64,000 nt of DNA from sequence record OR234014.1; one strand, written 5' to 3'. The DNA comes from Staphylococcus phage SAC. The notes beneath the pieces are model-generated. The model worked only from the letters and a program-made list of their open reading frames with translations, did not search any database and was not told the DNA's origin. Made by a program: the position numbers and the translations under genes. This document shows positions 38,868 to 50,281 of this stretch, in pieces. Each line of letters begins with the position of its first letter. Positions within the stretch are counted from its first letter, which is position 1.

Positions 38868-39557
38868 CTATATAACTTTGAAACTGTCAATATTATTTTT
38901 AATATATTCCGTTTTTTGTTTGTACTGCTCTTCAGTTAGTTTATCTGATTCATAGTAGTCTTTGATTTGTTGTAAGGCTAATTTATACTTAATATATCCT
39001 TTATACGAATTAAATTGCTTTATTAACTCTTCGTTGTATTCTACCATATCATTATATGTTAATCCTATCTCTATATCTGCATCTATAGGATACTGTCTTA
39101 ACTCACCATTAATTTTTATTTTTAAGAAATCATAAGGAAGGTTCTCCATTACATGGACAATAACTTTAGCCATAATATTAACTTCTTCAGGAGGTGAGTC
39201 TACTACAATACTATCATGAACAGTAGCTACTAACTTCGATTTCATATTCTTATTTTGAATAAAGTCGTCAATATAAGTAATAGCCATGTTAGTAAGGTAA
39301 CCACCTGTACCTTGAATAATCGTGTTAAAGGACTGTCTAAGACCCTCATTTTTAATCTTTTTATCTCTAGATTGTGCTGAGTGTATATATCTTCTGTGTC
39401 CATTCATTGTTTCTACATATCCATGTTTTTGAACAAACTCATGAGTTTCATCTATAGACTTCTTAATAGCAGGTTTATTAGAATAAAACTTATTAAATAT
39501 TTCAGTAGCTTCATCAACTGTCATATTATTTTTACCTGCAAACGAAAACTCTGACTC
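38868..39557 (-). CDS. DNA polymerase (family A), exon 2
   Basis: Frame opens at 39557 with 'ESEFSFAGKNNMTVDEATEIF', parallel to Pol I 'MSAFGLARQLNIPRKEAQKY'. Motif C is 'LVATVHDSIVVD'. Confidence 0.8.
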   Translation of the reverse strand, partial: ESEFSFAGKNNMTVDEATEIFNKFYSNKPAIKKSIDETHEFVQKHGYVETMNGHRRYIHSAQSRDKKIKNEGLRQSFNTIIQGTGGYLTNMAITYIDDFIQNKNMKSKLVATVHDSIVVDSPPEEVNIMAKVIVHVMENLPYDFLKIKINGELRQYPIDADIEIGLTYNDMVEYNEELIKQFNSYKGYIKYKLALQQIKDYYESDKLTEEQYKQKTEYIKNNIDSFKVI

Positions 39558-40637
39558 CGTTTATACCCTCGGTTTCCCGATATTTATTAGGGGACTAGAC
39601 TATATCTTAAGTAAATACGTTACTATCTACTTCTAGGCTATTCCATGTAGGTATGAGCTACATGTACTCTACTCGGTTATATTGCAATAAGCCCTCTCGG
39701 CGTAAAGCTCACCTTTTGATAGTCGTTCGATAAAATAATTTAAGTGTTTAAGTGTAATCAAATCGTTCTCTTTTCTCTATTTTGAATGTAATCCCATAAC
39801 AATCTTCACCGGTTTCCATTTTTCTAAAGTTAGTGCCTGACGTAGGTATATTTAGTCTCTTTAGTAGCTTAGTTTTTACTCTATCATAATCAATTTCCAC
39901 ATGATTCTTATAAGCAACATAGTGAGGTGCATAAAGTTTAGAAGGGTTTTCTACAGGTTGATAATTATATTCTTGTAGTGTTTTAAAAACCCAGTTCTTA
40001 TGATGTTTTCTTTCCCCTCTAAGAACTGCAGAAATATGGCTTTGAATTAAGTTATGTTCCTTAGCAAATTTAGACTGATTGAAGAATATATATTCTTTAC
40101 CTGTAGGGTCTATACCTAATATCTTTTTACTTCTTGAAGGTACAAATCCTAAGTTCTCTTCTCTAGTAGCCCATTTACATTTATCTAAGCTATATACTTT
40201 ATTACCTAGTTCTTTAATATCCTTATCTAACACTAACTCACCATTTTTATACTTCTCTAAACTCCAACCATCAATTAACTCTACATCCTTAAGAAAGTTA
40301 TTAAAATTATGCCATCTATCGTCTACTGTTATTCCTAGTAATCCATAATATTTATATTCCTTACATTTAGGATTATAACATCTGTCTATCATATGAGACC
40401 ATACATGAGCTAATTTAGAATATAGCTTATTGTGATTATATCTTTCTCCTATTTTAAATTCTATTTAAATCATCCTTACTTATTAAATTACACTTAAATT
40501 ATTCTACACAGGATTAGCATTTTAAAGCCTTCCCTGTTAGCATAGTTCTTAACTACCATTTCCTGTAGCTCCTAACGTGAACTATACACCCTATACTCAA
40601 TAGGTTTACCTAGTTTTACTACGGCTATATTTTGTTA
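39558..40637 (-). mobile_element. group I intron in the DNA polymerase gene (about 1080 nt) carrying an HNH-type endonuclease gene
   Basis: Inserted inside polymerase motif B (RQASKAVAFGLIYG | ESEFSFA). Exon 1 ends in U (TAC GGT) and the intron ends in G. Core motif 'aagatatagtct' about 50 nt from the 3' end. Confidence 0.75.
39748..40392 (-). CDS. intron-encoded homing endonuclease (HNH_3-like with C-terminal NUMOD/IENR-type HTH)
   Basis: 'LDKCKWATREENLGF' resembles the HNH_3 'NLRWVTRSEN' motif. 'FFNQSKFAKEHNLIQSHISAVLRGERKHHKNWVF' is typical of the C-terminal DNA-binding module of phage HNH/GIY endonucleases. Confidence 0.5.
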   Translation of the reverse strand: MIDRCYNPKCKEYKYYGLLGITVDDRWHNFNNFLKDVELIDGWSLEKYKNGELVLDKDIKELGNKVYSLDKCKWATREENLGFVPSRSKKILGIDPTGKEYIFFNQSKFAKEHNLIQSHISAVLRGERKHHKNWVFKTLQEYNYQPVENPSKLYAPHYVAYKNHVEIDYDRVKTKLLKRLNIPTSGTNFRKMETGEDCYGITFKIEKRERFDYT

Positions 40638-43160
40638 ACCGTAAATTAAACCAAAGGCTACAGCTTTACTGGCTTGTCTTTCTTCTGCTGTTACGTCCTT
40701 CATACTTTTACCATACATAATACTTGCCGTATTTTTATGAATATCTTGTCCTGTTAAAAACATCTCTAACATTTCTTTATCATCTGTATATAGTGCCGTA
40801 ATACGCATCTCTAAGGCACTATAGTCGGCTTGTAAAATTACACCATCTTTAAATCTAGAGATAAAAGAACGTTTAATAGGGTGGTGATAATCAAACTTAT
40901 TTATATCAGATGTATGAGCAGGTAATTGTTGCATATTAATGTTTGAACTACTTAATCGACCTGATGCAGTTCCTGTACTATTATAGTTACCATGTAAATT
41001 ATGTGTATTCTTATTTACTCTTTTAGGTAATTTCTTAGTAAAAGAATTTCTTTTAGTTTGCAAAGAGGCATAATAAATAAGTAAGTCTAGTAGCTTTTTA
41101 TTATCTTCATTCTCAACCAAAGATAATGCCATCTTTATAGACTTAGTATCTGTTTTGTAGTCTTTCCATGATAACTCATCTTCTTTAGTACTATTACTGA
41201 AAGGTTTATCCTTAACTGTCTCTTTACTATAAGGTAACTGTATACCTAAAATGCTATATAATACTTCACCTTTATGGTCTCCTGAGCTTGGTTTGAACTT
41301 CCAACCTTCATCTTTAAATTTAGCTCTATACTCATGTATTTCTTTGTCTCTATCAGATGGTTTCTTCTCATGTTCTGCTAGGGCTAGTTGGTATAAATTA
41401 TACCTAGTTTCTTCAAATTCTTGGATAGCCCAATGCTCTCTAATTTCTTGGTGGGTTTTTTCCATCTCATTAATATAAAATTCATCATTTTTATGCATGT
41501 ATTCTAAGTCACAATGTAAACCATTTGATTGTATTCTAGCTAATGTTCTAATTAATCTAGGGTAACTTATTGACATTAAGTTCAATGCTTTAGGTCTATT
41601 TTGTTCTTTTAACTTTTCAATAACATCACAGTATATTCTTCTACAGACATCGGTGTCACCACTGGCATAAGGATGCATAAGCTCTAATGGAATCCAATCA
41701 TAATTAAAGTCACCTCCATCTACCTCATTAATAACTTTAGTATTGTCCTTATACGTGTTAATTAAATTAATAGATGTACCTAATACATAATCTTTAGCTT
41801 TGTTAGATAAACTCATATACTCGGGTGATGATTCGGCTACTTCTTTAAATTCAGAATCCATAAGCATATTCTTTGTAATAACCTCAGGTGTTAGTTTTAA
41901 CTCTAAGTATCTTTTTTGCTCTTCTGTGATACCATAATACTTATCTTCATCTGTTAGTTCTATATCAATGTTATCGAGTTTATTTTTCAACCAAGTATCA
42001 TACTCATTTGATTTTATGTTATATTCTTTCTTAGCAACTTTTTTATTTTCTTTTTTAATCTCTTTTAGTTTATCTGATAAGAATCTTAGTAGCTTCAATA
42101 CATACCACTCTTTAAAATCTTCAAGAGGTTTGTCATATCCTCCTACATCTGTTACTTCGTAAGCAAGGTCTGATAATCTTAGAGACTCTGCTTGTTCTTG
42201 TGTTACAGCTAAATACCAACCTACCTTAGTGTCTTGATTATTTTCAAAGTCTGTGAAACCTTGTGTTGTCATTAGAAAATTTATATCATAAGTAGCATTA
42301 TGTAGTACCTTAATGTCTTCTTTGCTAGCTACCCATTCTTTTAATAAGGAAAGAATTTCATCAATATCTTGTTGTCCATTCTCCCAAGTAAAGTCTGATT
42401 TATATAAAGGTATTGTAACACCTTGACCATTTTCCCAACTCATTGATAATACTAAGGGTTTACTTCCTTCTCTATCAGGACTAAGTGAGTTAGTTTCTAA
42501 ATCCCATGCGGTAATGTCTACACCGTCATGATTATCATTCTTTACTTCTTTATTAAATATTTCTCTTACACGCTCAATACTTGTAACAAGTTCATACTTA
42601 ACTTCTTTAGGTTTAAATACGTCTTCACCTTGTTCTACAAACTTACCTAATAACTTAAGGTCAGCTACTACATGACGCTCACTATTCTTATTAACGTTTG
42701 TGTACTCTATGCTATAAGTAGGTAATACCCAAACATCATGTTTTTTATCTTCACTAGTAATAGTTACTTTATTAGGTACACCTCTAACTTTACCGATAGC
42801 TGATACATTTAATAAATATTTAACCCCTAGCTTACCTAAAGGAATAATAATATCGTACTTATTGTTTATGATTATTTGACTCATTCTTTCATAGTAAGGT
42901 TTAACTTCAGATAACTTAACGTCTTGGTACTTAATTGTTTTACCATAGTTATTCTTAATAGGTGTAGGTACTTTAGGATATAAAAAATCAATGTCATAAT
43001 CCTTTGTGCTCCTATCTCTATTAATACCAGAAATATTAGACAATAGTTGTTTTAGTACTCTACCATTAGGTGTATTTAATAGTACATTCTTAACACTACC
43101 ATCATTACTAACTGAAAAGTGTTCCTCTCTGATATAGTCGTATAAAATTAAAACTTTCAT
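40638..43160 (-). CDS. DNA polymerase (family A) with 3'-5' exonuclease domain, exon 1
   Basis: Exo I 'ITAWDLETNSL' and Exo III 'YASGDTDVCRRIY'. Pol motif A 'ILQADYSALEMRI' and motif B 'RQASKAVAFGLIYG'. Confidence 0.85.
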
Positions 43161-43192
43161 GTTATTACCAATCCCTTCTTTAACTTAAATAC

Positions 43193-43221
43193 AGTATAGC
43201 ATATCTAATCATAGTAGTCAA
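43193..43221 (-). promoter_or_regulatory. promoter of the DNA polymerase gene (TTGACT-17-TATACT)
   Basis: Minus-strand 'TTGACTactatgattagatatgcTATACT', then RBS AAAGAAGGGA. Confidence 0.55.
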
Positions 43222-43250
43222 TAAAAAAAAGAGGAACTTAATCCTCTTTG
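43221..43250 (-). terminator. rho-independent terminator
   Basis: Minus-strand aaagagga-ttaagt-tcctcttt followed by T8. Overlaps the stop of the HU-like gene. Confidence 0.65.
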
Positions 43251-43540
43251 TTTAATACATCTATAACTTTATCTAATTCAGACAAAGGTTTAAACTTTAG
43301 TGCCTTTCTATTAGGTAAAGTGAAGTATGTTTTATTTAGTCCATCCCATGCTTTTTTACCCTTACGCTCTACTACTTCTATTTGAAAGTACTTATGATTC
43401 TTTACCTTATCGTAATCTTCAAGTAGTAATTCAGAAATAGCTTTTGTTTCTGCTTCTAGTATCTCTTCTACGTCTTGGATATAGTACCCTGTACTCTCAG
43501 ATATCTTTCTTGCTATATCTCTTCTATTTGCTGTACTCAC
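43238..43540 (-). CDS. HU/IHF-like DNA-binding protein
   Basis: 'RRDIARKISESTGYYIQDVEEILEAETKAISELLLEDYDKV...KYFQIEVVERKGKKAWDGLNKTYFTLPNRKALKFKPLSEL' follows the HU fold pattern (F.V..R.ar.GrNP.T.....P....f.pgk.L). Confidence 0.65.
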   Translation of the reverse strand: MSTANRRDIARKISESTGYYIQDVEEILEAETKAISELLLEDYDKVKNHKYFQIEVVERKGKKAWDGLNKTYFTLPNRKALKFKPLSELDKVIDVLNKED

Positions 43541-43548
43541 AAAATCAC

Positions 43549-44151
43549 CTAAATCTTAATCTTTCTTTGTCTTTTTAATTCAGTAAGTAGGTCTTCTATT
43601 ATTTCATAATCTTTATTTTCTTTACTAGCAAGAATATAGATATACATTTTCCACACGGACAAAGAAACCCTTAATTTGTCTGCAAAGTCAAGCGTATACC
43701 TAGGTTTTAGTTTATAAGCTTCTTTATCATACGTGTAGTACTTACCTTGTTTAGCGTCTATAGAACTAATACGAGGGAATGATAGATGAACCTCGTCTAC
43801 ATTCGTTTTAACATCGTATAAACTTCTAATAATATCGTAAGGATTGACGTAAGGAAATACAACTGAAATATCAATAATGACTTTTGTTCCCATGAAACTC
43901 AAAGCTATATTATCCATATCTTTGTTACTAAACTTACTACGCATTCTATATACAACTGATGATTTAGGGTGAGCTGATAAATCTTTAAGCACATAGTAAG
44001 GAATTACTGAATCGGTATAGTATGTTACTTGTCCACCGTGCTTGCATATTTTTTCAATCAACTTATCATTGTTATACTTCTCATTAAATAGCATGTAATG
44101 TTTATCATCTCTTAGTATATACCTAGTTGATTTATTAGCTAAGTTGTCCAT
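43549..44151 (-). CDS. hypothetical protein
   Basis: 200-aa ORF. Confidence 0.5.
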   Translation of the reverse strand: MDNLANKSTRYILRDDKHYMLFNEKYNNDKLIEKICKHGGQVTYYTDSVIPYYVLKDLSAHPKSSVVYRMRSKFSNKDMDNIALSFMGTKVIIDISVVFPYVNPYDIIRSLYDVKTNVDEVHLSFPRISSIDAKQGKYYTYDKEAYKLKPRYTLDFADKLRVSLSVWKMYIYILASKENKDYEIIEDLLTELKRQRKIKI

Positions 44152-44357
44152 ATCTTTTTCTATCTCATCTTCATTTAAAGTTGTAACTTTAATAGCTTTA
44201 GATAATTCATCTTTGTTTTTTACATGTATATTAAAATATCTATCACTATTATATATAGTTAATGTTTTATTTTTTGCGATAACTATTCATCCTTTCATGA
44301 AAAAACCTACTACCTTTTACTAATATAAGTATAGCATAAGTAGTAGGTAATTACAAA

Positions 44358-44690
44358 TTAAAGTAAATCTAATTCCATTAAGTTTTTAGGTGTTACTTGG
44401 TCTTCGAACTTCTTAGCAAGTTCCCCATCTTTATATCCAATAAGTACAGGTGTACTCATAATGTCAAATAACTTGACCGCTTTTTCTCTATCTACATCTT
44501 TATCATCTAAGTTAATAACATAAACAGGTTTAGTAATATCTCCTTCTGCTTCGAAAAGAGGAATCACACTTTTTAAAATTTCACATTTAGCACACTCATC
44601 TTGTGTAACCATGACAATAACATCCTGTTTTTGTCTGATTGTTGTATTTAACTCTAATAAACTATTCACTTTTTCCATTTTCTGTATCAT
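44358..44690 (-). CDS. thioredoxin/glutaredoxin-like protein (NrdH-like redoxin)
   Basis: CxxC active site 'DECAKCE' in a redoxin-sized protein of about 110 aa. Adjacent to the nrd genes. Confidence 0.6.
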   Translation of the reverse strand: MIQKMEKVNSLLELNTTIRQKQDVIVMVTQDECAKCEILKSVIPLFEAEGDITKPVYVINLDDKDVDREKAVKLFDIMSTPVLIGYKDGELAKKFEDQVTPKNLMELDLL

Positions 44691-44988
44691 CCTTTTCTAG
44701 TGTGTCAATAATATCTTTAAATGTTTCAATATCAGCTACATGTGTTAACTGCACCATACCATCAGCTTTAAATAACTTCAATGTACCTTCGTATATAAGA
44801 ATGTATACATATGTATTATAAATAAACTCTAGCTGAAATTTACTGGATTTACTATCTGCTTTAGTATCATCTCCCCTATTAAACATCTTAATAGGGTCTT
44901 GTACATTACTTACTTGTGAGAAAATATCATTTGATTTGAATATATCTTCAGTTCTACTTAGTAATCCAAACGCTTCTTTTTTATTCAT
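44662..44988 (-). CDS. hypothetical protein
   Basis: 108-aa ORF between nrdE and the redoxin gene. Confidence 0.45.
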   Translation of the reverse strand: MNKKEAFGLLSRTEDIFKSNDIFSQVSNVQDPIKMFNRGDDTKADSKSSKFQLEFIYNTYVYILIYEGTLKLFKADGMVQLTHVADIETFKDIIDTLEKDDTENGKSE

Positions 44989-45000
44989 TTAGTCACCTCT

Positions 45001-45936
45001 TTAGGCTTCACAATTAATACAAATTTTAGATAAATTGAATTGTTGTGATGCATTTGTACCATGTTGATAATACAATGACTTAATACCATTAGACCATGCA
45101 AAGAGATAAAGTTCATTTAACTCCTCTGCTGTAACATGTTTAGGGTTAATCATAATGTTTATAGATTGTCCTTGGTCAATATATTTTTGTCTTGTAGAAG
45201 CTTGGTCTAATATATTATATTGATTAATTTCACCATATGTTTTAAATACTTCCTTTTCATAATCACTTAAGAAAGTTAGGTGTTGAACGGAACCATCATT
45301 GTCCCTAATACTCTCAATAACTTTTTTATTGTCCTTTCCTTTTTCTTTTAATAGTCTTTTAAGGTAAGGATTAATCATAGTTTTCTTTACTTTAGCAGTG
45401 TCTACAACGTAATAATTACTCATAAAAGGTTCAATTGATTTAGAAACTTGACCTAGGATAAATGAGCTCGAAGTCGTAGGAGCTACCGCCATCAAACACG
45501 AATTCCTTCTACCATACCCTTTAAGAATAGTAGGCTCTCCATAAAGTTTAGCTAACTGCTCACTAGCTTTATAAGTTTTTTCTTTTAATAATTTAAATAT
45601 CTCTTCATTAATTTGACTAGCTTTAATACTTTCAAAAGGTATGAGTTTTGATTGTAGGTATGAATGATATCCAAGAACGCCTATTCCTAAGGCTCTGTTC
45701 TCAACAGAAAAGTTATAAGCTCTCTCCATAAATTTAAATGCTTCTTGTTTATCTTTTTCAGCTGAGTCTCTTAGATATTCTAAGTCTCTAATAAACTCAG
45801 ACATAACAGCATCTAAAAAGTAAACAAGTGTCTCTACAGCATCCGTGTGTTTCCATTCATCATACTTAACAAGGTTCATACTAGATAGGTCACATACAAA
45901 TGACCAATCTTCTTTATTAGGTAACATAATTTCACT
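45001..45936 (-). CDS. nrdE: ribonucleotide reductase large subunit NrdE-like, exon 2
   Basis: Frame opens with 'SEIMLPNKEDWSFVCDLSSMNL', which is NrdE 'SEILQVN...CNLGSLNL'. C-terminal Cys pair 'KICINCEA'. Confidence 0.8.
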   Translation of the reverse strand, partial: SEIMLPNKEDWSFVCDLSSMNLVKYDEWKHTDAVETLVYFLDAVMSEFIRDLEYLRDSAEKDKQEAFKFMERAYNFSVENRALGIGVLGYHSYLQSKLIPFESIKASQINEEIFKLLKEKTYKASEQLAKLYGEPTILKGYGRRNSCLMAVAPTTSSSFILGQVSKSIEPFMSNYYVVDTAKVKKTMINPYLKRLLKEKGKDNKKVIESIRDNDGSVQHLTFLSDYEKEVFKTYGEINQYNILDQASTRQKYIDQGQSINIMINPKHVTAEELNELYLFAWSNGIKSLYYQHGTNASQQFNLSKICINCEA

Positions 45937-46775
45937 CCTACATGTTCAATAGTGGTCGTTAATCACTACCAGTTCTCTAATTAACAATATTTATAGTTAG
46001 GGAATTTTTCAGAATTACATCTTCTGGTTAATGTATTTCTGTTTATTCCTAGCTCTTCAGAGCATATACCCATATTTTTATAAACTACGCCATCAACAAT
46101 AACTTTTTTAGCATTAGCGCTTTCTTTACCATACATCGGATTGTTTTTTCCTCGTCTATCCATTATATTCCACCCAAAACCTATCTCCATATTATAACCT
46201 TTTTTTACAGATTCGTACATGTCTATAAAAATTTGCTCTACCATGTAAGCAAACTTTTTATCCTCTGTACTAAAAGTGTATAATTCTTCTACATAAAAAT
46301 TCTCTTCACCATGTTTCATCATTGATTGGTGTAAATTAGTTGTTGAGCCTATCTTAGCTTTTCTAATATGATTTTTAAATCTATGTTGAACTGTTTTTGA
46401 TGTAATTCCGATGTATATTTTATTATTGTTTTTGTTTGTAATTTTATAAATATGGTACTCCATTTTCGACCCTCTTAATTATTATTGTTAATATGAACTT
46501 CTATATGTTTCCATATAGAGCAGACTATATCATCTTCCTTAATAAGGAAGTCCACCATTTCGATTTAAATAAGATTTACTTGATTATTACTCAATACTTA
46601 TACCACTTGGCTCTAACCTTATCCCTTCACTTATGTGAATAGGTTACGGATAGTCGTTAGGCATTTACAGATTTATAATCTGATTTAGCACGGTGTTGTC
46701 GTATATTTTAACTTAGATATTCACCGTTTAGATGGATTTTTCGATAGTAATTACTTACTAAAGGTGCAAATTTTT
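45937..46775 (-). mobile_element. group I intron in nrdE (839 nt) carrying a GIY-YIG homing endonuclease gene
   Basis: Splits the active-site 'SNLC|SEI'. Exon 1 ends TGT (U) and the intron ends ...GTAGG (G). The 'gatatagtct' core (46531-46545, minus) is 5' of the ORF. Confidence 0.8.
45981..46463 (-). CDS. GIY-YIG homing endonuclease, intron-encoded
   Basis: 'HIYKITNKNNNKIYIGITSKTVQHRFKNH' is the GIY-(10)-YIG motif with the conserved R. Confidence 0.8.
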   Translation of the reverse strand: MEYHIYKITNKNNNKIYIGITSKTVQHRFKNHIRKAKIGSTTNLHQSMMKHGEENFYVEELYTFSTEDKKFAYMVEQIFIDMYESVKKGYNMEIGFGWNIMDRRGKNNPMYGKESANAKKVIVDGVVYKNMGICSEELGINRNTLTRRCNSEKFPNYKYC

Positions 46776-47522
46776 ACACAAATTTGAGTTATTAATAGTC
46801 AATCCTTTGTCTTTATATACATCTACTGTATTACTATTTGCATTATCATGAAAGAAGATATAGGGGTATCCTATTTGTGTTCTTCTTGTTAATACTTTAG
46901 CCCATGTTTTTCTTTTTTCTTTGTCCCCATTAATCATGTCTAATAACCAATCATCAGTAACTGTTACCGCATGTGTTAAGTTTTGAATTGGATTACCTTC
47001 GGTACCAATCTCTAAAAACTCGTCAATATCTTTGTGTTCTATAGGTAGATAAGGGCTAAATCTTCCTCTTCTTTGGCTACCCTGACTTATCGTATCTGTC
47101 ATTTGCTCAAATAGCTTCATAAAATGAACGGAACCACTTGTCAGTCCATTATCAGTGATTTCTGAGCCTCTAGGTCTGATGTTACCGAAGTAACCACTTG
47201 TACCACCACCGTATTTACTCATCATACCTACTTCACTAGCAGTATTAAGTATCGATGGTATAGTATCATCTACCCAACTACCAAAACAACTAATACTAAA
47301 TCCTCTATCTTTCCCGAAATTAGACCATATAGGACTGGATAAGGAATAATAACCTTTACTCATATAATCATAAAACTTGTCAGAAAACCCATCAATACCT
47401 AAAATATCTTCAGCGTAATCTGCAATATCTTTAATTCTTTGTTCTGGTGTTTCACCATCACTTAAATAACCACGTTCTAGAAAAACTCTAGAATCATTAT
47501 TTAACCATTCAAAATTACTCAT
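46776..47522 (-). CDS. nrdE: ribonucleotide reductase large subunit NrdE-like, exon 1 (N-terminally short)
   Basis: 'SCFGSWVDDT' loop, 'GGGTSGYFGNIRPRGSEI', 'GYPYIFFHDNAN', and ends 'SNLC'. It starts about 95-140 aa later than typical NrdE. Confidence 0.8.
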
Positions 47523-47537
47523 CTATATACACTGCCT

Positions 47538-48875
47538 TTATATCATTTTTAGTCTTAAAATAGCGTTTACTTTATCTTTAGTAACTCGTTTACCAGTATT
47601 TTCAAAATCAGATTCCGTTGAAAAAATAGTATCTTCCGTTACAGAATTACTAAATTTTGTATAGTTTACAGAACGTTTAGATAAAAAGTCCGTTAACTTA
47701 GTACTAATAACTTCATCATCAAACCATGACACTTCACTTAGTAACTCTTCATCAACATCAAAAAGTTTAGTATACCCAACAGCTACTAGAGAGTTATTAA
47801 GCCTATTTTTAATAAATTCTTGTACTACTTTCTTAGGTAAGAACTCTAGTTCCCCATCTTCATACATCCAATCAAGTAACCGTGTTTCTGATTCATAAGA
47901 TTTTTTACAGGCTGTGTAAACTGCATCTTCCATTTCTTTGTTGAACCACTCAGGTCTTTCTTCTCTAAGAATATTAATGATTTCTGTTCCAAATAATCCA
48001 TGGATTTGCTCTTCTTTAGATGTAGCTTCAATAGCATTTGATAAACCTCTAAATAAGTTTTTATATTTATTAAAACTCATCATAATTAAAAATTGACTAA
48101 ATAAAGATACATGTTCAATAAATATAGAAAATAATAAAACAGATAGTACGTAATCTCTATCATCCTCACTCTTACTTAGTTTTACATGCATCGCTAACTC
48201 ATCAACACGTTCTTTAAGAGCAGGAATATCGTCAATTGTTTTAAACTCCTCATTCAAACCTAAAATCTCTAATAAATGTGAATAAGCGTCGGCATGACGT
48301 GCTTCACTCTCACTAAAAGTTGCACCCACAGCTCCAGTTTCCCATTTAGGCATTCTATGATATAGGTCACCCCAGAAAGTCTTTACTGCTACTTCTACTT
48401 GGGCAATTGCTAGCATAGCTTTTTTAATGGTCATTTGCTCATTGTATTTAACGTTATTCTTATAGTCTTGAATATCTGATGTATAGTTAAACTCAGTGTG
48501 TACCCAGTAACTTTGGCGTATAGCATCTTTATATTCTAATAATTCAGGGTATTCATAGGGTTTTAATTCTTTTCTTGGTTTGAATAAGTCTCTTTTACGC
48601 TCTCTTTTCTTTTTATCCCTATATAAAATAAAAGCTTTAGCAGTATCTTTATACATACTACTAAATAAAACTTCTTCTACTATATCTTGTATTAATTCTA
48701 CAGTAATGATAGTGTCTTGTTCTTCTAGTAAAGAGTCTACGTCATCTACAAGAGAATCAATAACATCTTCAATATATTCTTCTGTTTCTGAGTTGGCTCT
48801 TAAAATAGCATTAGTAACTTTACTTAAATCATAATCTACAACGGAACCATCACGTTTTTTTATTTGTGTAATCAA
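47538..48875 (-). CDS. nrdF: ribonucleotide reductase small subunit (R2/NrdF-like) with N-terminal ATP-cone domain
   Basis: N-terminal 'ITQIKKRDGSVVDYDLSKVTNAILRA...VELIQDIVEEVL...AKAFILYR' is ATP-cone consensus (VIKRDG..E.F...KI..AI; EEIQD.VE; A.AYI.YR). R2 core 'SESEARHADAY' (ExxH + Y radical), 'EEQIHGLFG', and C-terminal 'DFLSKRSVNYTK...ESDF'. Confidence 0.8.
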   Translation of the reverse strand: MITQIKKRDGSVVDYDLSKVTNAILRANSETEEYIEDVIDSLVDDVDSLLEEQDTIITVELIQDIVEEVLFSSMYKDTAKAFILYRDKKKRERKRDLFKPRKELKPYEYPELLEYKDAIRQSYWVHTEFNYTSDIQDYKNNVKYNEQMTIKKAMLAIAQVEVAVKTFWGDLYHRMPKWETGAVGATFSESEARHADAYSHLLEILGLNEEFKTIDDIPALKERVDELAMHVKLSKSEDDRDYVLSVLLFSIFIEHVSLFSQFLIMMSFNKYKNLFRGLSNAIEATSKEEQIHGLFGTEIINILREERPEWFNKEMEDAVYTACKKSYESETRLLDWMYEDGELEFLPKKVVQEFIKNRLNNSLVAVGYTKLFDVDEELLSEVSWFDDEVISTKLTDFLSKRSVNYTKFSNSVTEDTIFSTESDFENTGKRVTKDKVNAILRLKMI

Positions 48876-48889
48876 CTAGTATCCCTTCC

Positions 48890-49498
48890 TTATATACCAT
48901 CAAGTAAATCATCAATCAACTTATCTTCTTTTTTACTAACTTTAGATATTTTAGATTTGACAACTCTATATGGTTTAATCTCTTTTTTGTTGTAGCAAGA
49001 TATAATATAAGAAGGTGTTAAGTTAGTCAACCCATCTATCGTAGTTATAAGAACATCATAAAAATGTTTGTCTTTTCTAACATTCTCTATAATAAAATCT
49101 GTTCTCATAATAGGGTACTCTTCATCTCTTAACTTAACATATACATCTTCTATATAAGGTAATGCTACATATGACTGTGCTCTATTTCTTGTAAATATTA
49201 AACAAGGAGTTTTATTAACTTGCAAACTATCTCCTATAACTTGTTCCCACCATGTATGAGGTTCTTTATTATTAAGTAGAACATTATCCATAATCCAATT
49301 TTCTCTATGTTTACACTCTACAACTAATGGAAAATTAGACTCTAAAGGTGCTACAATGTCACCGACAGCATTATTGTTAGCTCCCCATGATGCACCTCCT
49401 GATTGTGGAGACCTACTAAAAGGATAACCCCACCAATCAGAAAGTTCTTTGGCAATCTTTCTTTCGAATACATCACCTTTTTTTTTACTATTTGTCAT
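48890..49498 (-). CDS. putative Holliday-junction resolvase / PD-(D/E)xK nuclease (Hjc/RecU-like)
   Basis: 'GDVFERKIAKELSDWWG...VGDIVAP...LVVECKHRE' has G..FER...L...D...ECK spacing like Hjc-type resolvases. Confidence 0.45.
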   Translation of the reverse strand: MTNSKKKGDVFERKIAKELSDWWGYPFSRSPQSGGASWGANNNAVGDIVAPLESNFPLVVECKHRENWIMDNVLLNNKEPHTWWEQVIGDSLQVNKTPCLIFTRNRAQSYVALPYIEDVYVKLRDEEYPIMRTDFIIENVRKDKHFYDVLITTIDGLTNLTPSYIISCYNKKEIKPYRVVKSKISKVSKKEDKLIDDLLDGI

Positions 49499-49925
49499 GT
49501 TTCTTCAACTGCACTACTTTTTCATTATCTTCTTTTGCTTTATGCTCTTCTTGTTTTTTTCTTACTTCTTCTTGTTTTTCTTCTAAATACTTTTCACGTT
49601 TTTCTTTTAATTTAAGTTGCGCCTTCTCTACTTGCTCAGTAGTTACATCTAGGTTATCTTCCATAACAATCATTAACAAATCAATAGCATTAAAAGCATC
49701 ATTAAAGGCAGATGCATACTCTTGAACTGTAACGGCATTAATTGCTCGTGCAATTCTAGTAGCCTCATCTAATGATACACTACGTGCTCCAATACGATGT
49801 AATTGCTTAGCAGTGTCCTCAGTTAATTCCTTGCCTTCTACTGTTCCTTGTGTAATAGCTTCTAACCACATGTCCATATCTTTTTGTGAAATACCTTTTG
49901 TATGTGTACTAATATTTTTTTCCAT
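49488..49925 (-). CDS. hypothetical protein with K/E-rich C-terminus
   Basis: 145-aa ORF. Confidence 0.5.
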   Translation of the reverse strand: MEKNISTHTKGISQKDMDMWLEAITQGTVEGKELTEDTAKQLHRIGARSVSLDEATRIARAINAVTVQEYASAFNDAFNAIDLLMIVMEDNLDVTTEQVEKAQLKLKEKREKYLEEKQEEVRKKQEEHKAKEDNEKVVQLKKHDK

Positions 49926-50281
49926 TATTCTTCATCCTTTTCTTTTGATTCTTCAATTGCTTCCTCAATATATTTTAATACGTCATCGTTAACTAACTCA
50001 GCTTTGTATAAAGCATCAATTAGAATGTTTAAGTTTAACTCTGTATTTTGCTCTAGGTCAACCATTTGTTTATTAACACCTAACAATAAGTTAGTAATAG
50101 CTTTCATAACATCTGTTAAAGTTGCTGTTTGTTCTTTACCTAACTCTTCTAATTGGTGCATACGCTGTTCATTACCTACACGTAATGCTGTAACATACTC
50201 ATCTACAAAATGTAGAATATCTTTCTCTTCCAAAATAACACTTCCTTTATTTTTATATATGTATTGTAACATACTATACAT
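49925..50281 (-). CDS. hypothetical acidic protein
   Basis: 118-aa ORF, ATGA-coupled. Confidence 0.5.
   Translation of the reverse strand: MYSMLQYIYKNKGSVILEEKDILHFVDEYVTALRVGNEQRMHQLEELGKEQTATLTDVMKAITNLLLGVNKQMVDLEQNTELNLNILIDALYKAELVNDDVLKYIEEAIEESKEKDEE

What the first reader, a model, noticed from the sequence alone, without database searches (positions are those of the whole stretch)
46776..48875. RNR small subunit carries an N-terminal ATP-cone while the large subunit is N-terminally short, with small subunit encoded first
47538..48875 begins with a clear ATP-cone (KRDGSVVDYDLSKVTNAI...VELIQDIVEEVL...AKAFILYR) fused to a complete R2 (ExxH...Y radical site, EEQIH). The adjacent NrdE starts only about 80 aa before its 'SCF' loop, about 100 aa shorter than typical NrdE. 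The gene order is small subunit then large subunit. ATP-cone allosteric regulation through the radical-generating subunit is known in a few bacterial NrdB lineages but is unusual for a Firmicutes-phage class-Ib-like system.
Basis: partly seen in the sequence, partly recalled or inferred. Interest (0 to 1): 0.7.

Follow-up and report, generated by a model that had tools for sequence, protein, structure and literature searches.

The report
Phage class Id RNR with ATP-cone
This Staphylococcus phage encodes a manganese-type (class Id) ribonucleotide reductase whose on/off nucleotide sensor sits on the small subunit instead of the large one, an arrangement that is real here but was already described in 2018, so it is an ordinary member of a known family.

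Summary
The 445-aa product of 48875..47538 (minus strand) has a full ATP-cone (Pfam E 8e-19) fused to an R2 core. The next gene encodes a large subunit with no ATP-cone. The small-subunit gene comes first.

The naming is wrong. This is not NrdE/NrdF or class-Ib-like. It is a class Id (NrdAi/NrdBi) enzyme:
- The small subunit matches the Leeuwenhoekiella blandensis ATP-cone::NrdB (PDB 5OLK) over cone and core (E 6e-151, 57% identity).
- The large subunit matches the 574-residue class Id alpha 6DQX end to end and passes NCBIfam TIGR02510. It fails the NrdE model (142 bits against a cut-off of 750).

The short N-terminus is therefore normal for this subclass (published median 564 aa).

Its range stops at the 5' splice site (46776) of an 839-nt group I intron that carries a GIY-YIG endonuclease gene. 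Splicing at NLC|SEI gives a complete 560-aa protein.

Cone-on-beta, short alpha and beta-then-alpha order are a published, linked pattern (eLife 2018; Protein Sci 2022) that includes viral sequences. The dATP-driven beta-tetramer switch is inferred, not tested.

One side observation: a conserved 27-aa C-terminal extension on the phage NrdB has no assigned function.

The parts
47538..48875 (-). nrdB: ATP-cone::NrdBi radical-generating subunit (445 aa, TTG start; stop codon at 47538-47540)
   Evidence: ORF; ribosome-binding site and start. Pfam ATP-cone plus Ribonuc_red_sm. PDB 5OLK over the full length, E 6e-151. AF2 model against 5OLK gives target-normalised TM 0.86-0.91.
48603..48866 (-). ATP-cone domain (aa 4-91)
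   Evidence: PF03477, 68.4 bits, E 8.3e-19, profile 2-88 of 88. It is 42% identical to the L. blandensis cone. The residues named for the L. blandensis cone-cone interface map to D64, E67/E68, F71, K80, I83, L84 and R86. pLDDT is 81-94.
47751..48572 (-). R2 metal-binding core (aa 102-375). Ligands are E161, E191, H194, E254, E289, H292. Class Id helix-B lysine is K165; also W168 and Y198.
   Evidence: Pfam. Mapped onto L. blandensis E170/E200/E263/E298/H301, K174, W177 and Y207; the second histidine (H194) rests on the ExxH motif at 189-194. All are invariant in 59 homologues.
47541..47621 (-). Conserved 27-aa C-terminal extension of NrdB (aa 419-445), following the canonical class Id terminus ...EDTIF. 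Function unknown.
   Evidence: Motif S-x-x-S-[DE]-[FL]...K-x-x-V-N-x-x-L-R-[LM]-[RK]-M is shared by most of the closest 120 homologues and absent from those ending ...DDLF. AF2 predicts a helix at 433-444 after a disordered tail.
46776..47522 (-). nrdA exon 1 (codons 1-249, ending ...SNLC)
   Evidence: ORF. Pfam Ribonuc_red_lgN plus the start of the barrel. Junction defined.
45937..46775 (-). Group I intron (839 nt) inserted between the Cys and Ser codons of the active-site finger-loop motif NLC|SEI
   Evidence: Rfam RF00028 at 46785..46501, 63.7 bits (gathering score 50), E 1.1e-15, model positions 1-253 of 253. The 5' exon ends in U and the intron ends in G. Phage MR003 lacks the intron, and the in-silico spliced junction matches it contiguously at 98.3%.
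45981..46463 (-). Intron-encoded GIY-YIG homing endonuclease (160 aa), I-TevI-like
   Evidence: Pfam GIY-YIG (E 3.5e-9) plus I-TevI DNA-binding domain (E 3.9e-7). PHROG 314 homing endonuclease.
45001..45936 (-). nrdA exon 2 (codons 250-560, SEIMLP...CINCEA, plus stop)
   Evidence: Pfam barrel domain. The spliced 560-aa protein aligns at 3-559 with 6DQX, E 2e-215, and passes TIGR02510.
44662..44988 (-). Conserved phage ORF of unknown function (108 aa) between nrdA and the thioredoxin-like gene
   Evidence: No Pfam or NCBIfam hit. PHROG 2797, unknown function, E 2e-46.
44358..44690 (-). Thioredoxin-like protein (110 aa, CAKC motif); the likely reductant of the phage RNR (inferred)
   Evidence: Pfam Thioredoxin, 23.7 bits, just above the cut-off. 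PHROG 22 thioredoxin domain. A thioredoxin or glutaredoxin gene lies beside nrdB-nrdA in all related loci examined.

Best explanation
The locus is the nrdB-nrdA operon of a Silviavirus-type Staphylococcus myophage. It encodes a class Id (NrdAi/NrdBi) ribonucleotide reductase.

NrdB has an N-terminal ATP-cone, a dimanganese R2 core, a flexible alpha-binding tail and a 27-aa extension. NrdA is the 'minimal' roughly 560-aa catalytic subunit that never carries an ATP-cone. Its gene is interrupted at the active-site NLC|SEI codons by a self-splicing group I intron carrying a GIY-YIG homing endonuclease. The intron must be spliced out to give a functional protein.

By analogy with the characterised L. 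blandensis and F. ignava enzymes, the following steps are inferred, not shown:
- With ATP bound, the cone leaves NrdB as a dimer that forms active alpha2beta2.
- With dATP bound, cone-cone contacts pull NrdB into a beta4 tetramer that holds NrdA in non-productive alpha2beta4/alpha4beta4 complexes. This shuts off dNTP synthesis.
- The radical is initiated by a Mn2(IV,III) centre rather than a tyrosyl radical, assembled without NrdI.
- The downstream thioredoxin-like protein probably re-reduces NrdA.
For: Shown by tools:
- Full ATP-cone plus R2.
- NrdB is 57% identical over cone and core to 5OLK, and the next hits are all class Id betas: L. blandensis, A. actinomycetemcomitans, F. johnsoniae.
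- All six metal ligands, the class-Id helix-B lysine (K165) and the conserved Trp (W168) are present and invariant in 59 homologues.
- The residues named for the L. blandensis cone-cone interface are conserved or conservatively replaced.
- Spliced NrdA aligns end to end with class Id alphas 6DQX and 6DQW. It passes TIGR02510 and fails the NrdE model.
- It has C79, N247/C249/E251, C264, Y538/Y539 and the C-terminal C555/C558 pair.
- The group I intron scores above the Rfam gathering score, and an intron-less allele exists in phage MR003.
- Beta-then-alpha order with an adjacent redoxin gene is seen in every related locus examined.

From the literature:
- Mechanism and viral occurrence: PMC5794259 and PMC6187632.
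- Cofactor: PMC6754362.
- Link between cone-on-beta, short NrdAi and beta-alpha order: PMC9669993.
Against: - No biochemistry exists for this phage enzyme.
- The cone is only 42% identical to the L. blandensis cone. The F. ignava cone already behaves differently (one ATP instead of two), so details of nucleotide stoichiometry and oligomer type may differ.
- The 27-aa extension after the normal alpha-binding C-terminus is absent from all characterised class Id betas and could alter how beta engages alpha.
- GenBank records annotate the two nrdA pieces as separate CDSs. An AGGAG sequence lies 8 nt upstream of the ATG at 45927.
Confidence: 0.88

Rival explanations
1. One reading: a class-Ib-like NrdE/NrdF system that has unusually acquired an ATP-cone on NrdF and lost the N-terminus of NrdE.
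For: The host genus uses class Ib (from my own knowledge). NrdE also lacks a functional ATP-cone. ATP-cones on NrdF do exist, but at the C-terminus and only in Meiothermus.
Against: TIGR04170 NrdE scores 142 bits against a cut-off of 750, and TIGR04171 NrdF scores 55 against 355. NrdE structures align only over residues 45-175 with E 1e-23 to 1e-28, against E 2e-215 for the class Id alpha. No flavodoxin-like NrdI was found among the adjacent ORFs or in the 49 kb of the near-identical Stau2 annotation.
Confidence: 0.02
2. The ATP-cone is a degenerate remnant that no longer regulates activity, so the phage enzyme is constitutively active.
For: Phages are often thought to benefit from unregulated dNTP supply, and loss of cones in viral RNRs has been discussed. 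The cone is the least conserved part of the protein, at 42% identity against 61% for the core.
Against: There is a full-length Pfam match well above threshold. K7, R8, K19, D64, E67, Y85 and R86 are invariant across 59 homologues. The named interface residues are retained. The fold is predicted with confidence. The cone is kept in essentially all relatives, which argues for purifying selection.
Confidence: 0.08
3. Genes-in-pieces: nrdA is not spliced but expressed as two polypeptides (254 aa and 308 aa, as annotated in GenBank) that assemble non-covalently. This was reported for the mobE-split nrdA of Aeromonas phage Aeh1 (from memory).
For: GenBank annotations list two alpha CDSs. AGGAG lies 8 nt upstream of an in-frame ATG at 45927.
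Against: A complete group I ribozyme core lies exactly at the break (63.7 bits), with U at the 5' splice site and G at the intron's 3' end. Independent translation would lose Ser250-Glu251-Ile252. These include the glutamate of the conserved NLCxEI motif, which is encoded between the 3' splice site and that ATG. It would also add KNLHL to the first piece.
Confidence: 0.04

Closest known systems
Leeuwenhoekiella blandensis ATP-cone::NrdBi / NrdAi class Id RNR (PDB 5OLK, 6SF4/6SF5; Rozman Grinberg et al., eLife 2018, PMC5794259)
   Same: Same domain order (N-terminal ATP-cone, short linker, R2 core, disordered tail). It is 57% identical overall. Metal ligands, the helix-B lysine, the Trp and the non-bonded Tyr are identical. 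The named cone-cone interface residues are conserved. The partner alpha has no cone.
   Different: The phage protein has 27 extra C-terminal residues after the ...(D/T)(L/I)F end. Its cone is only 42% identical. It is carried by a phage of a Firmicute rather than a marine flavobacterium. Its nrdA carries a group I intron.
Facklamia ignava Grx::ATP-cone::NrdBi (Rozman Grinberg et al., JBC 2018, PMC6187632)
   Same: A Firmicute class Id enzyme with the cone on beta. nrdA lies just downstream of nrdB (46 nt there, 15 nt here). dATP switches the enzyme off through the cone.
   Different: The phage has no fused glutaredoxin. It encodes a separate thioredoxin-like protein two genes downstream. It also has the C-terminal extension and the intron.
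Class Id alpha subunits of Actinobacillus ureae and Flavobacterium johnsoniae (PDB 6DQX, 6DQW; 'minimal architecture', Rose et al. 2019, cited)
   Same: The spliced phage NrdA aligns over its whole length (3-559 against 29-573 of 6DQX, E 2e-215). It has the same short N-terminus and the same C-terminal CxxC.
   Different: The beta partners of those enzymes have no ATP-cone (344-348-residue chains). The phage alpha has a 12-residue insertion near residue 305, shared with the other cone-associated alphas examined.
Class Ib NrdE/NrdF/NrdI
   Same: An aerobic class I RNR with manganese chemistry and a catalytic subunit that has no working ATP-cone.
   Different: It is a different phylogenetic subclass. 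The family models fail by a wide margin. NrdE is 90-100 residues longer at the N-terminus. It needs NrdI and uses a tyrosyl radical.
Phage group I introns with GIY-YIG endonucleases in nucleotide-metabolism genes (T4 td/I-TevI; Twort and SPbeta RNR introns; from memory)
   Same: A group I ribozyme core with a free-standing GIY-YIG/I-TevI-type ORF, inserted at the most conserved active-site codons. Presence varies among close isolates.
   Different: Nothing of note. This specific insertion site (NLC|SEI of a class Id alpha) also occurs in the Nosocomiicoccus prophage homologue.

Membership tests
Class Id RNR (NrdAi/NrdBi) | Beta subunit groups by sequence and fold with characterised class Id betas | tested here: met
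   The top PDB hits are all class Id: 5OLK, 6SF4, 8DQ3, 6CWO, at E 6e-151 to 1e-90. The next best hit, 9DWS, is at E 1.6e-20. Foldseek gives target-normalised TM of 0.86-0.96.
Class Id RNR (NrdAi/NrdBi) | Six carboxylate/histidine metal ligands, plus the helix-B lysine that points at the metal site, plus the subclass-conserved Trp | tested here: met
   E161, E191, H194, E254, E289, H292, K165 and W168 map onto the L. blandensis ligands E170/E200/E263/E298/H301, K174 and W177 (H194 via the ExxH motif). All are invariant in 59 homologues.
Class Id RNR (NrdAi/NrdBi) | Short catalytic subunit (median 564 aa) with no ATP-cone | tested here: met
   The spliced NrdA is 560 aa. Pfam finds no cone. TIGR02510 scores 727.5 bits against a cut-off of 602. 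It aligns end to end with 6DQX. The median length is from PMC9669993.
Class Id RNR (NrdAi/NrdBi) | Mn2(IV,III) cofactor as radical initiator, with no tyrosyl radical and no NrdI | not testable with these tools
   This needs EPR and activity assays. Only indirect support is available: no NrdI-like gene next to the operon or in the 49 kb of the Stau2 annotation.
ATP-cone domain (PF03477) acting as overall-activity switch on NrdB | Full-length ATP-cone fold at the N-terminus of NrdB | tested here: met
   68.4 bits against a gathering score of 25.8, covering profile 2-88 of 88. pLDDT is 81-94. It superposes with the cone-containing 5OLK chains.
ATP-cone domain (PF03477) acting as overall-activity switch on NrdB | Residues of the cone-cone (alpha3/alpha4) interface that builds the dATP-induced beta4 tetramer | tested here: met
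   L. blandensis D73, E76/D77, M80, K89, I92, I93 and R95 correspond to phage D64, E67/E68, F71, K80, I83, L84 and R86. This is a sequence-level test only.
ATP-cone domain (PF03477) acting as overall-activity switch on NrdB | dATP inhibits, ATP activates, and dATP drives beta2 to beta4 | not testable with these tools
   This needs a recombinant enzyme, activity assays and SEC, GEMMA or mass photometry.
Class Ib RNR (NrdE/NrdF/NrdI) | Alpha and beta pass the NrdE and NrdF family models | tested here: not met
   TIGR04170 scores 141.9 bits against a cut-off of 750. TIGR04171 scores 55.5 against 355.
Class Ib RNR (NrdE/NrdF/NrdI) | NrdI flavodoxin gene associated with the operon | tested here: not met
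   The neighbours are a PDDEXK nuclease, a GIY-YIG endonuclease, an unknown 108-aa ORF and a thioredoxin-like protein. Nothing flavodoxin-like is annotated in 49 kb of the 99%-identical Stau2. The whole window was not scanned with an NrdI model.
Group I self-splicing intron (Rfam RF00028) | Covariance-model score above gathering, with the whole core present | tested here: met
   63.7 bits against 50, E 1.1e-15, model positions 1-253 of 253, at 46785..46501.
Group I self-splicing intron (Rfam RF00028) | U before the 5' splice site, G at the intron's 3' end, and removal restores a continuous conserved reading frame | tested here: met
   ...TTG TGT|AAAAA and ...GTAGG|AGT GAA. Splicing gives SNLCSEIMLP, matching SNLCTEIMLP of 6DQX. 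The intron-less phage MR003 matches the spliced junction in one piece at 98.3%.
Group I self-splicing intron (Rfam RF00028) | Splicing actually occurs | not testable with these tools
   This needs RT-PCR or RNA-seq from infected cells, or in vitro self-splicing.
GIY-YIG homing endonuclease (I-TevI type) | GIY-YIG catalytic domain plus a C-terminal I-TevI-type DNA-binding domain, encoded inside an intron | tested here: met
   PF01541 at E 3.5e-9 and PF20987 at E 3.9e-7. The ORF at 46463..45981 lies between the ribozyme core and the 3' splice site.

The most novel reading that the evidence does not exclude
The one part with no counterpart in the characterised class Id enzymes is the conserved 27-residue C-terminal extension of NrdB: S-x-x-S-[DE]-[FL]...K-x-x-V-N-x-x-L-R-[LM]-[RK]-M, with a predicted terminal helix.

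In class I RNRs the extreme C-terminus of beta is the alpha-binding anchor, so an appendage beyond it is unexpected. It could be a new interaction module found so far only in phage or prophage settings. Possibilities include a second contact with NrdA, a tether to the phage redoxin or replication/dNTP-synthesis machinery, or part of the on/off switch.

A related possibility comes from the cone and core identity mismatch in a syntenic Twort-like phage: cone 72% identical, core 60%. This would mean ATP-cones are still being swapped between NrdBi cores by recombination in phages.
Probability: 0.25. Interest if true: 0.45.

Novelty: already known. Interest (0 to 1): 0.17.

Why it matters
The locus corrects an annotation habit. 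They are class Id, manganese-dependent and NrdI-independent, with allosteric control on beta.

For phage biology it means Silviavirus phages bring into S. aureus an RNR of a different subclass from the host's, and one that probably retains dATP feedback control.

The enzyme is not new in kind. The eLife 2018 and Protein Science 2022 papers already describe the cone-on-beta, short-alpha, beta-first pattern and note viral members.

The small unexplored items are the phage-type C-terminal extension of NrdB and the patchwork of intein and introns in nrdA among near-identical isolates.

Tried and rejected
- The first Rfam scan of 40000-50000 at E<=0.1 found nothing. Re-scanning only 45900-46800 found the group I intron at 63.7 bits. 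The first negative was a speed-filter artefact.
- Pfam did not recognise the 323-aa in-frame insertion in Stau2 NrdA as an intein. That call rests only on its boundaries (SQG|C...GN|S) and its absence from the window.
- I looked for a feature of NrdA that co-occurs with the NrdB C-terminal extension. The 12-residue insertion near residue 305 is present with both extended and non-extended betas, so there is no correlate.
- Folding the 3' tail of the intron gave no significant structure (z -0.2).
- The AF2 monomer model says only that the extension is a moderately confident helix after a disordered tail. It cannot show a binding partner.
- The split DNA polymerase gene gave no Rfam intron hit at E<=0.01.
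- The class Ib reading, a degenerate cone and 'genes in pieces' were considered and rejected (see the rival explanations).
Full report
**Where the window comes from.** The 4.7 kb around the finding is 99% identical to Staphylococcus myophages of the genus Silviavirus (Stau2, Romulus, Remus and others; Herelleviridae, Twortvirinae). All genes discussed are on the minus strand.

**Checking the observation.**
- The ORF 48875..47538 encodes 445 aa. It starts at TTG, with GGAAGGG 7 nt upstream.
- Pfam finds a complete ATP-cone at aa 4-91: profile 2-88 of 88, 68.4 bits against a gathering score of 25.8, E 8.3e-19.
- Pfam also finds the RNR small-chain domain at aa 102-375, E 4.9e-53.
- The next gene starts 15 nt after the nrdB stop. 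It has the all-alpha and barrel domains of the large subunit but no cone. Its 'SCF' cysteine is residue 79.
- In PDB alignments its N-terminus is 90-100 residues shorter than NrdE and about 146 shorter than E. coli NrdA.
- There is no room for an upstream exon.

**What it is.** The small subunit aligns from residue 2 to 418 with the ATP-cone-containing NrdB of Leeuwenhoekiella blandensis (5OLK).
- The match has E 6e-151 and 57% identity overall, 42% in the cone and 61% in the core.
- The next hits are all class Id betas: L. blandensis core, Aggregatibacter and Flavobacterium johnsoniae.
- An AF2 model (mean pLDDT 79.9; cone 81-94) superposes on the 5OLK chains with target-normalised TM 0.86-0.91.
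- The six metal ligands (E161, E191, H194, E254, E289, H292), the class-Id lysine on helix B (K165), the subclass-conserved Trp (W168) and the non-bonded Tyr (Y198) map onto the L. blandensis residues described in PMC5794259 and PMC6754362. All are invariant in 59 homologues.
- The residues named for the L. blandensis cone-cone interface that builds the dATP-induced tetramer correspond to D64, E67/E68, F71, K80, I83, L84 and R86.

**The large subunit is split.**
- The first ORF ends ...SNLC-KNLHL*. The second begins at an internal Met of ...SEI-M-LPN.
- Between them lies an 839-nt insert, 46775..45937.
- Its 5' 275 nt form a complete group I ribozyme core. With 10 nt of upstream exon, Rfam RF00028 matches 46785..46501 at 63.7 bits against a gathering score of 50, E 1.1e-15, model positions 1-253 of 253.
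- The core is followed by a GIY-YIG/I-TevI-type homing endonuclease ORF at 46463..45981.
- The 5' exon ends in U and the intron ends in G.
- Joining 46776 to 45936 gives SNLCSEIMLP and a 560-aa protein.
- That protein aligns end to end with the class Id alpha of Actinobacillus ureae (6DQX, residues 3-559 against 29-573, E 2e-215) and with F. johnsoniae 6DQW.
- It passes NCBIfam TIGR02510, the short 'NrdE-prime' alpha model, with 727.5 bits against a cut-off of 602. It fails the class Ib NrdE model with 142 against 750. NrdB fails the NrdF model with 55 against 355.
- The spliced protein has all catalytic residues: C79, N247/C249/E251, C264, Y538/Y539 and C555/C558.
- The junction is independently confirmed. 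Phage MR003 lacks this intron, and the in-silico spliced 300-nt junction matches it in one piece at 98.3%.
- Translating the second piece on its own would lose S250-E251-I252, so splicing is required for function.

The lower bound of the finding, 46776, is exactly the 5' splice site.

**Comparison with what is known.** All three elements of the finding are published as a linked pattern.
- Rozman Grinberg et al. [quoted passage not shown] Their NrdAi partners never have cones. The paper showed that dATP binding to the cone drives beta2 to an inactive beta4.
- The Firmicute Facklamia ignava enzyme has nrdA 46 nt downstream of nrdB (PMC6187632).
- Burnim et al. (Protein Sci 2022, PMC9669993) give a median NrdAi length of 564 aa. 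They state that cones on beta occur almost exclusively where alpha is transcribed downstream of beta, which is the case for 70 of 104 NrdAi operons.
- In the large protein database, all 120 best relatives of the phage NrdB carry the cone except one 335-aa fragment.
- Every context I examined has the beta-then-alpha order with an adjacent redoxin gene. These are a Nosocomiicoccus locus with phage-like neighbours, two metagenomic phage contigs and a Bacillus infantis locus with phage-like neighbours.

The locus is an ordinary member of the class Id ATP-cone::NrdBi group.

**Mechanism.**
- Shown: domain architecture, family membership, conservation of ligands and interface residues, the intron and the exon junction.
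- Inferred from the characterised homologues:
  - ATP-bound NrdB dimers form active alpha2beta2.
  - dATP-bound cones pair and sequester NrdB as beta4, giving non-productive alpha2beta4/alpha4beta4.
  - A Mn2(IV,III) centre, assembled with superoxide or H2O2 and without NrdI, replaces the tyrosyl radical.
  - The downstream thioredoxin-like protein (CAKC) recycles NrdA.
- No NrdI-like gene is adjacent or annotated in 49 kb of Stau2.

**Rivals.**
- The class Ib reading is refuted by the family-model scores.
- A degenerate, non-regulatory cone is unlikely given full-length conservation. It can only be excluded by assay.
- A 'genes-in-pieces' alpha is unlikely given the intact ribozyme and the loss of E251 that independent translation would cause.

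**Side observations.**
1. NrdB continues for 27 residues after the canonical ...EDTIF end. The conserved motif is S-x-x-S-[DE]-[FL]...K-x-x-V-N-x-x-L-R-[LM]-[RK]-M.
   - It is shared by most of the 120 closest homologues and absent from those ending ...DDLF.
   - AF2 predicts a terminal helix at 433-444.
   - All three extended forms whose context I checked are in phage or phage-like settings (the window).
   - I found no co-varying feature in NrdA.
2. A group of NrdBs from a syntenic Twort-like metagenomic phage has a cone 72% identical to this one but a core only 60% identical, with no extension. All other relatives with similar cores have cones at 43-52%. This suggests exchange at the cone-core boundary.
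3. Near-identical Silviavirus isolates differ in mobile elements within nrdA.
   - Stau2 and Romulus have an extra 323-aa in-frame insertion with intein-like boundaries at SQG|S.
   - Romulus and MR003 have another endonuclease-containing insertion downstream.
   - The window has only the GIY-YIG intron.
4. The DNA polymerase gene of the window is also interrupted by an I-HmuI-like endonuclease ORF. No Rfam intron hit was found there.

**Verdict.** The kind of system is already known, so overall interest is low. The only open item is the function of the C-terminal extension.

Noticed in passing
window 47541..47621 (minus), NrdB aa 419-445: A conserved 27-aa extension follows the canonical class Id beta C-terminus (...EDTIF). 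Its motif is S-x-x-S-[DE]-[FL]...K-x-x-V-N-x-x-L-R-[LM]-[RK]-M, with a predicted terminal helix. It is present in most of the closest homologues and absent from those ending ...DDLF and from all solved class Id betas. All three contexts checked are phage or phage-like.
   Followed up: partly
P0085/P0089 group; loci L008 and L009 (6001-7263): The NrdB of a syntenic Twort-like metagenomic phage has an ATP-cone 71-72% identical to the window's but a core only 60-61% identical, with no C-terminal extension. Other relatives with 60-70% cores have cones at 43-52%. This suggests recombination at the cone-core boundary.
   Followed up: partly
L001 3959-5692 (Stau2 ORF75) against window 47522..46758: Stau2 and Romulus carry a 323-aa in-frame insertion with intein-like boundaries (SQG|CYDD...LVCGN|S) in nrdA exon 1. 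The window lacks it. Pfam did not recognise it as an intein.
   Followed up: partly
L002 2202-4167 (Romulus); L007 3436-4664 (MR003): A further insertion with an endonuclease-type ORF interrupts the 3' half of nrdA in Romulus and MR003 (an HNH ORF in Romulus) but not in the window. MR003 in turn lacks the GIY-YIG intron. Mobile-element content in nrdA is a patchwork among 98-99% identical isolates.
   Followed up: partly
L003 7350-10412 (Nosocomiicoccus ampullae chromosome CP079109): The closest 'cellular' homologue sits among phage-like genes (family A DNA polymerase, methylases, DUF3310). Its nrdA is broken at the same NLC| position and again further downstream, next to an HNH ORF.
   Followed up: no
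window 38868..43160 (minus): The family A DNA polymerase gene is split. The 841-aa ORF at 40635..43160 ends ...AVAFGLIYG, and a 218-aa ORF at 38868..39524 carries the rest of the DNA_pol_A domain. An I-HmuI/NUMOD-like endonuclease ORF at 39748..40392 lies between them. No Rfam group I hit was found at E<=0.01, so the nature of the insert is unresolved.
   Followed up: partly
window 40000..50000 against 45900..46800: A methodological point. The group I intron (63.7 bits) was missed when 10 kb was scanned at E<=0.1 and found only when 0.9 kb was scanned. Rfam's speed filters can hide ORF-containing introns in this AT-rich genome.
   Followed up: yes
window 44662..44988 (minus): A 108-aa ORF lies between nrdA and the thioredoxin-like gene and overlaps the latter by 29 nt. 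It has no Pfam or NCBIfam hit and belongs to PHROG 2797 (unknown function). It could be an RNR accessory factor.
   Followed up: no
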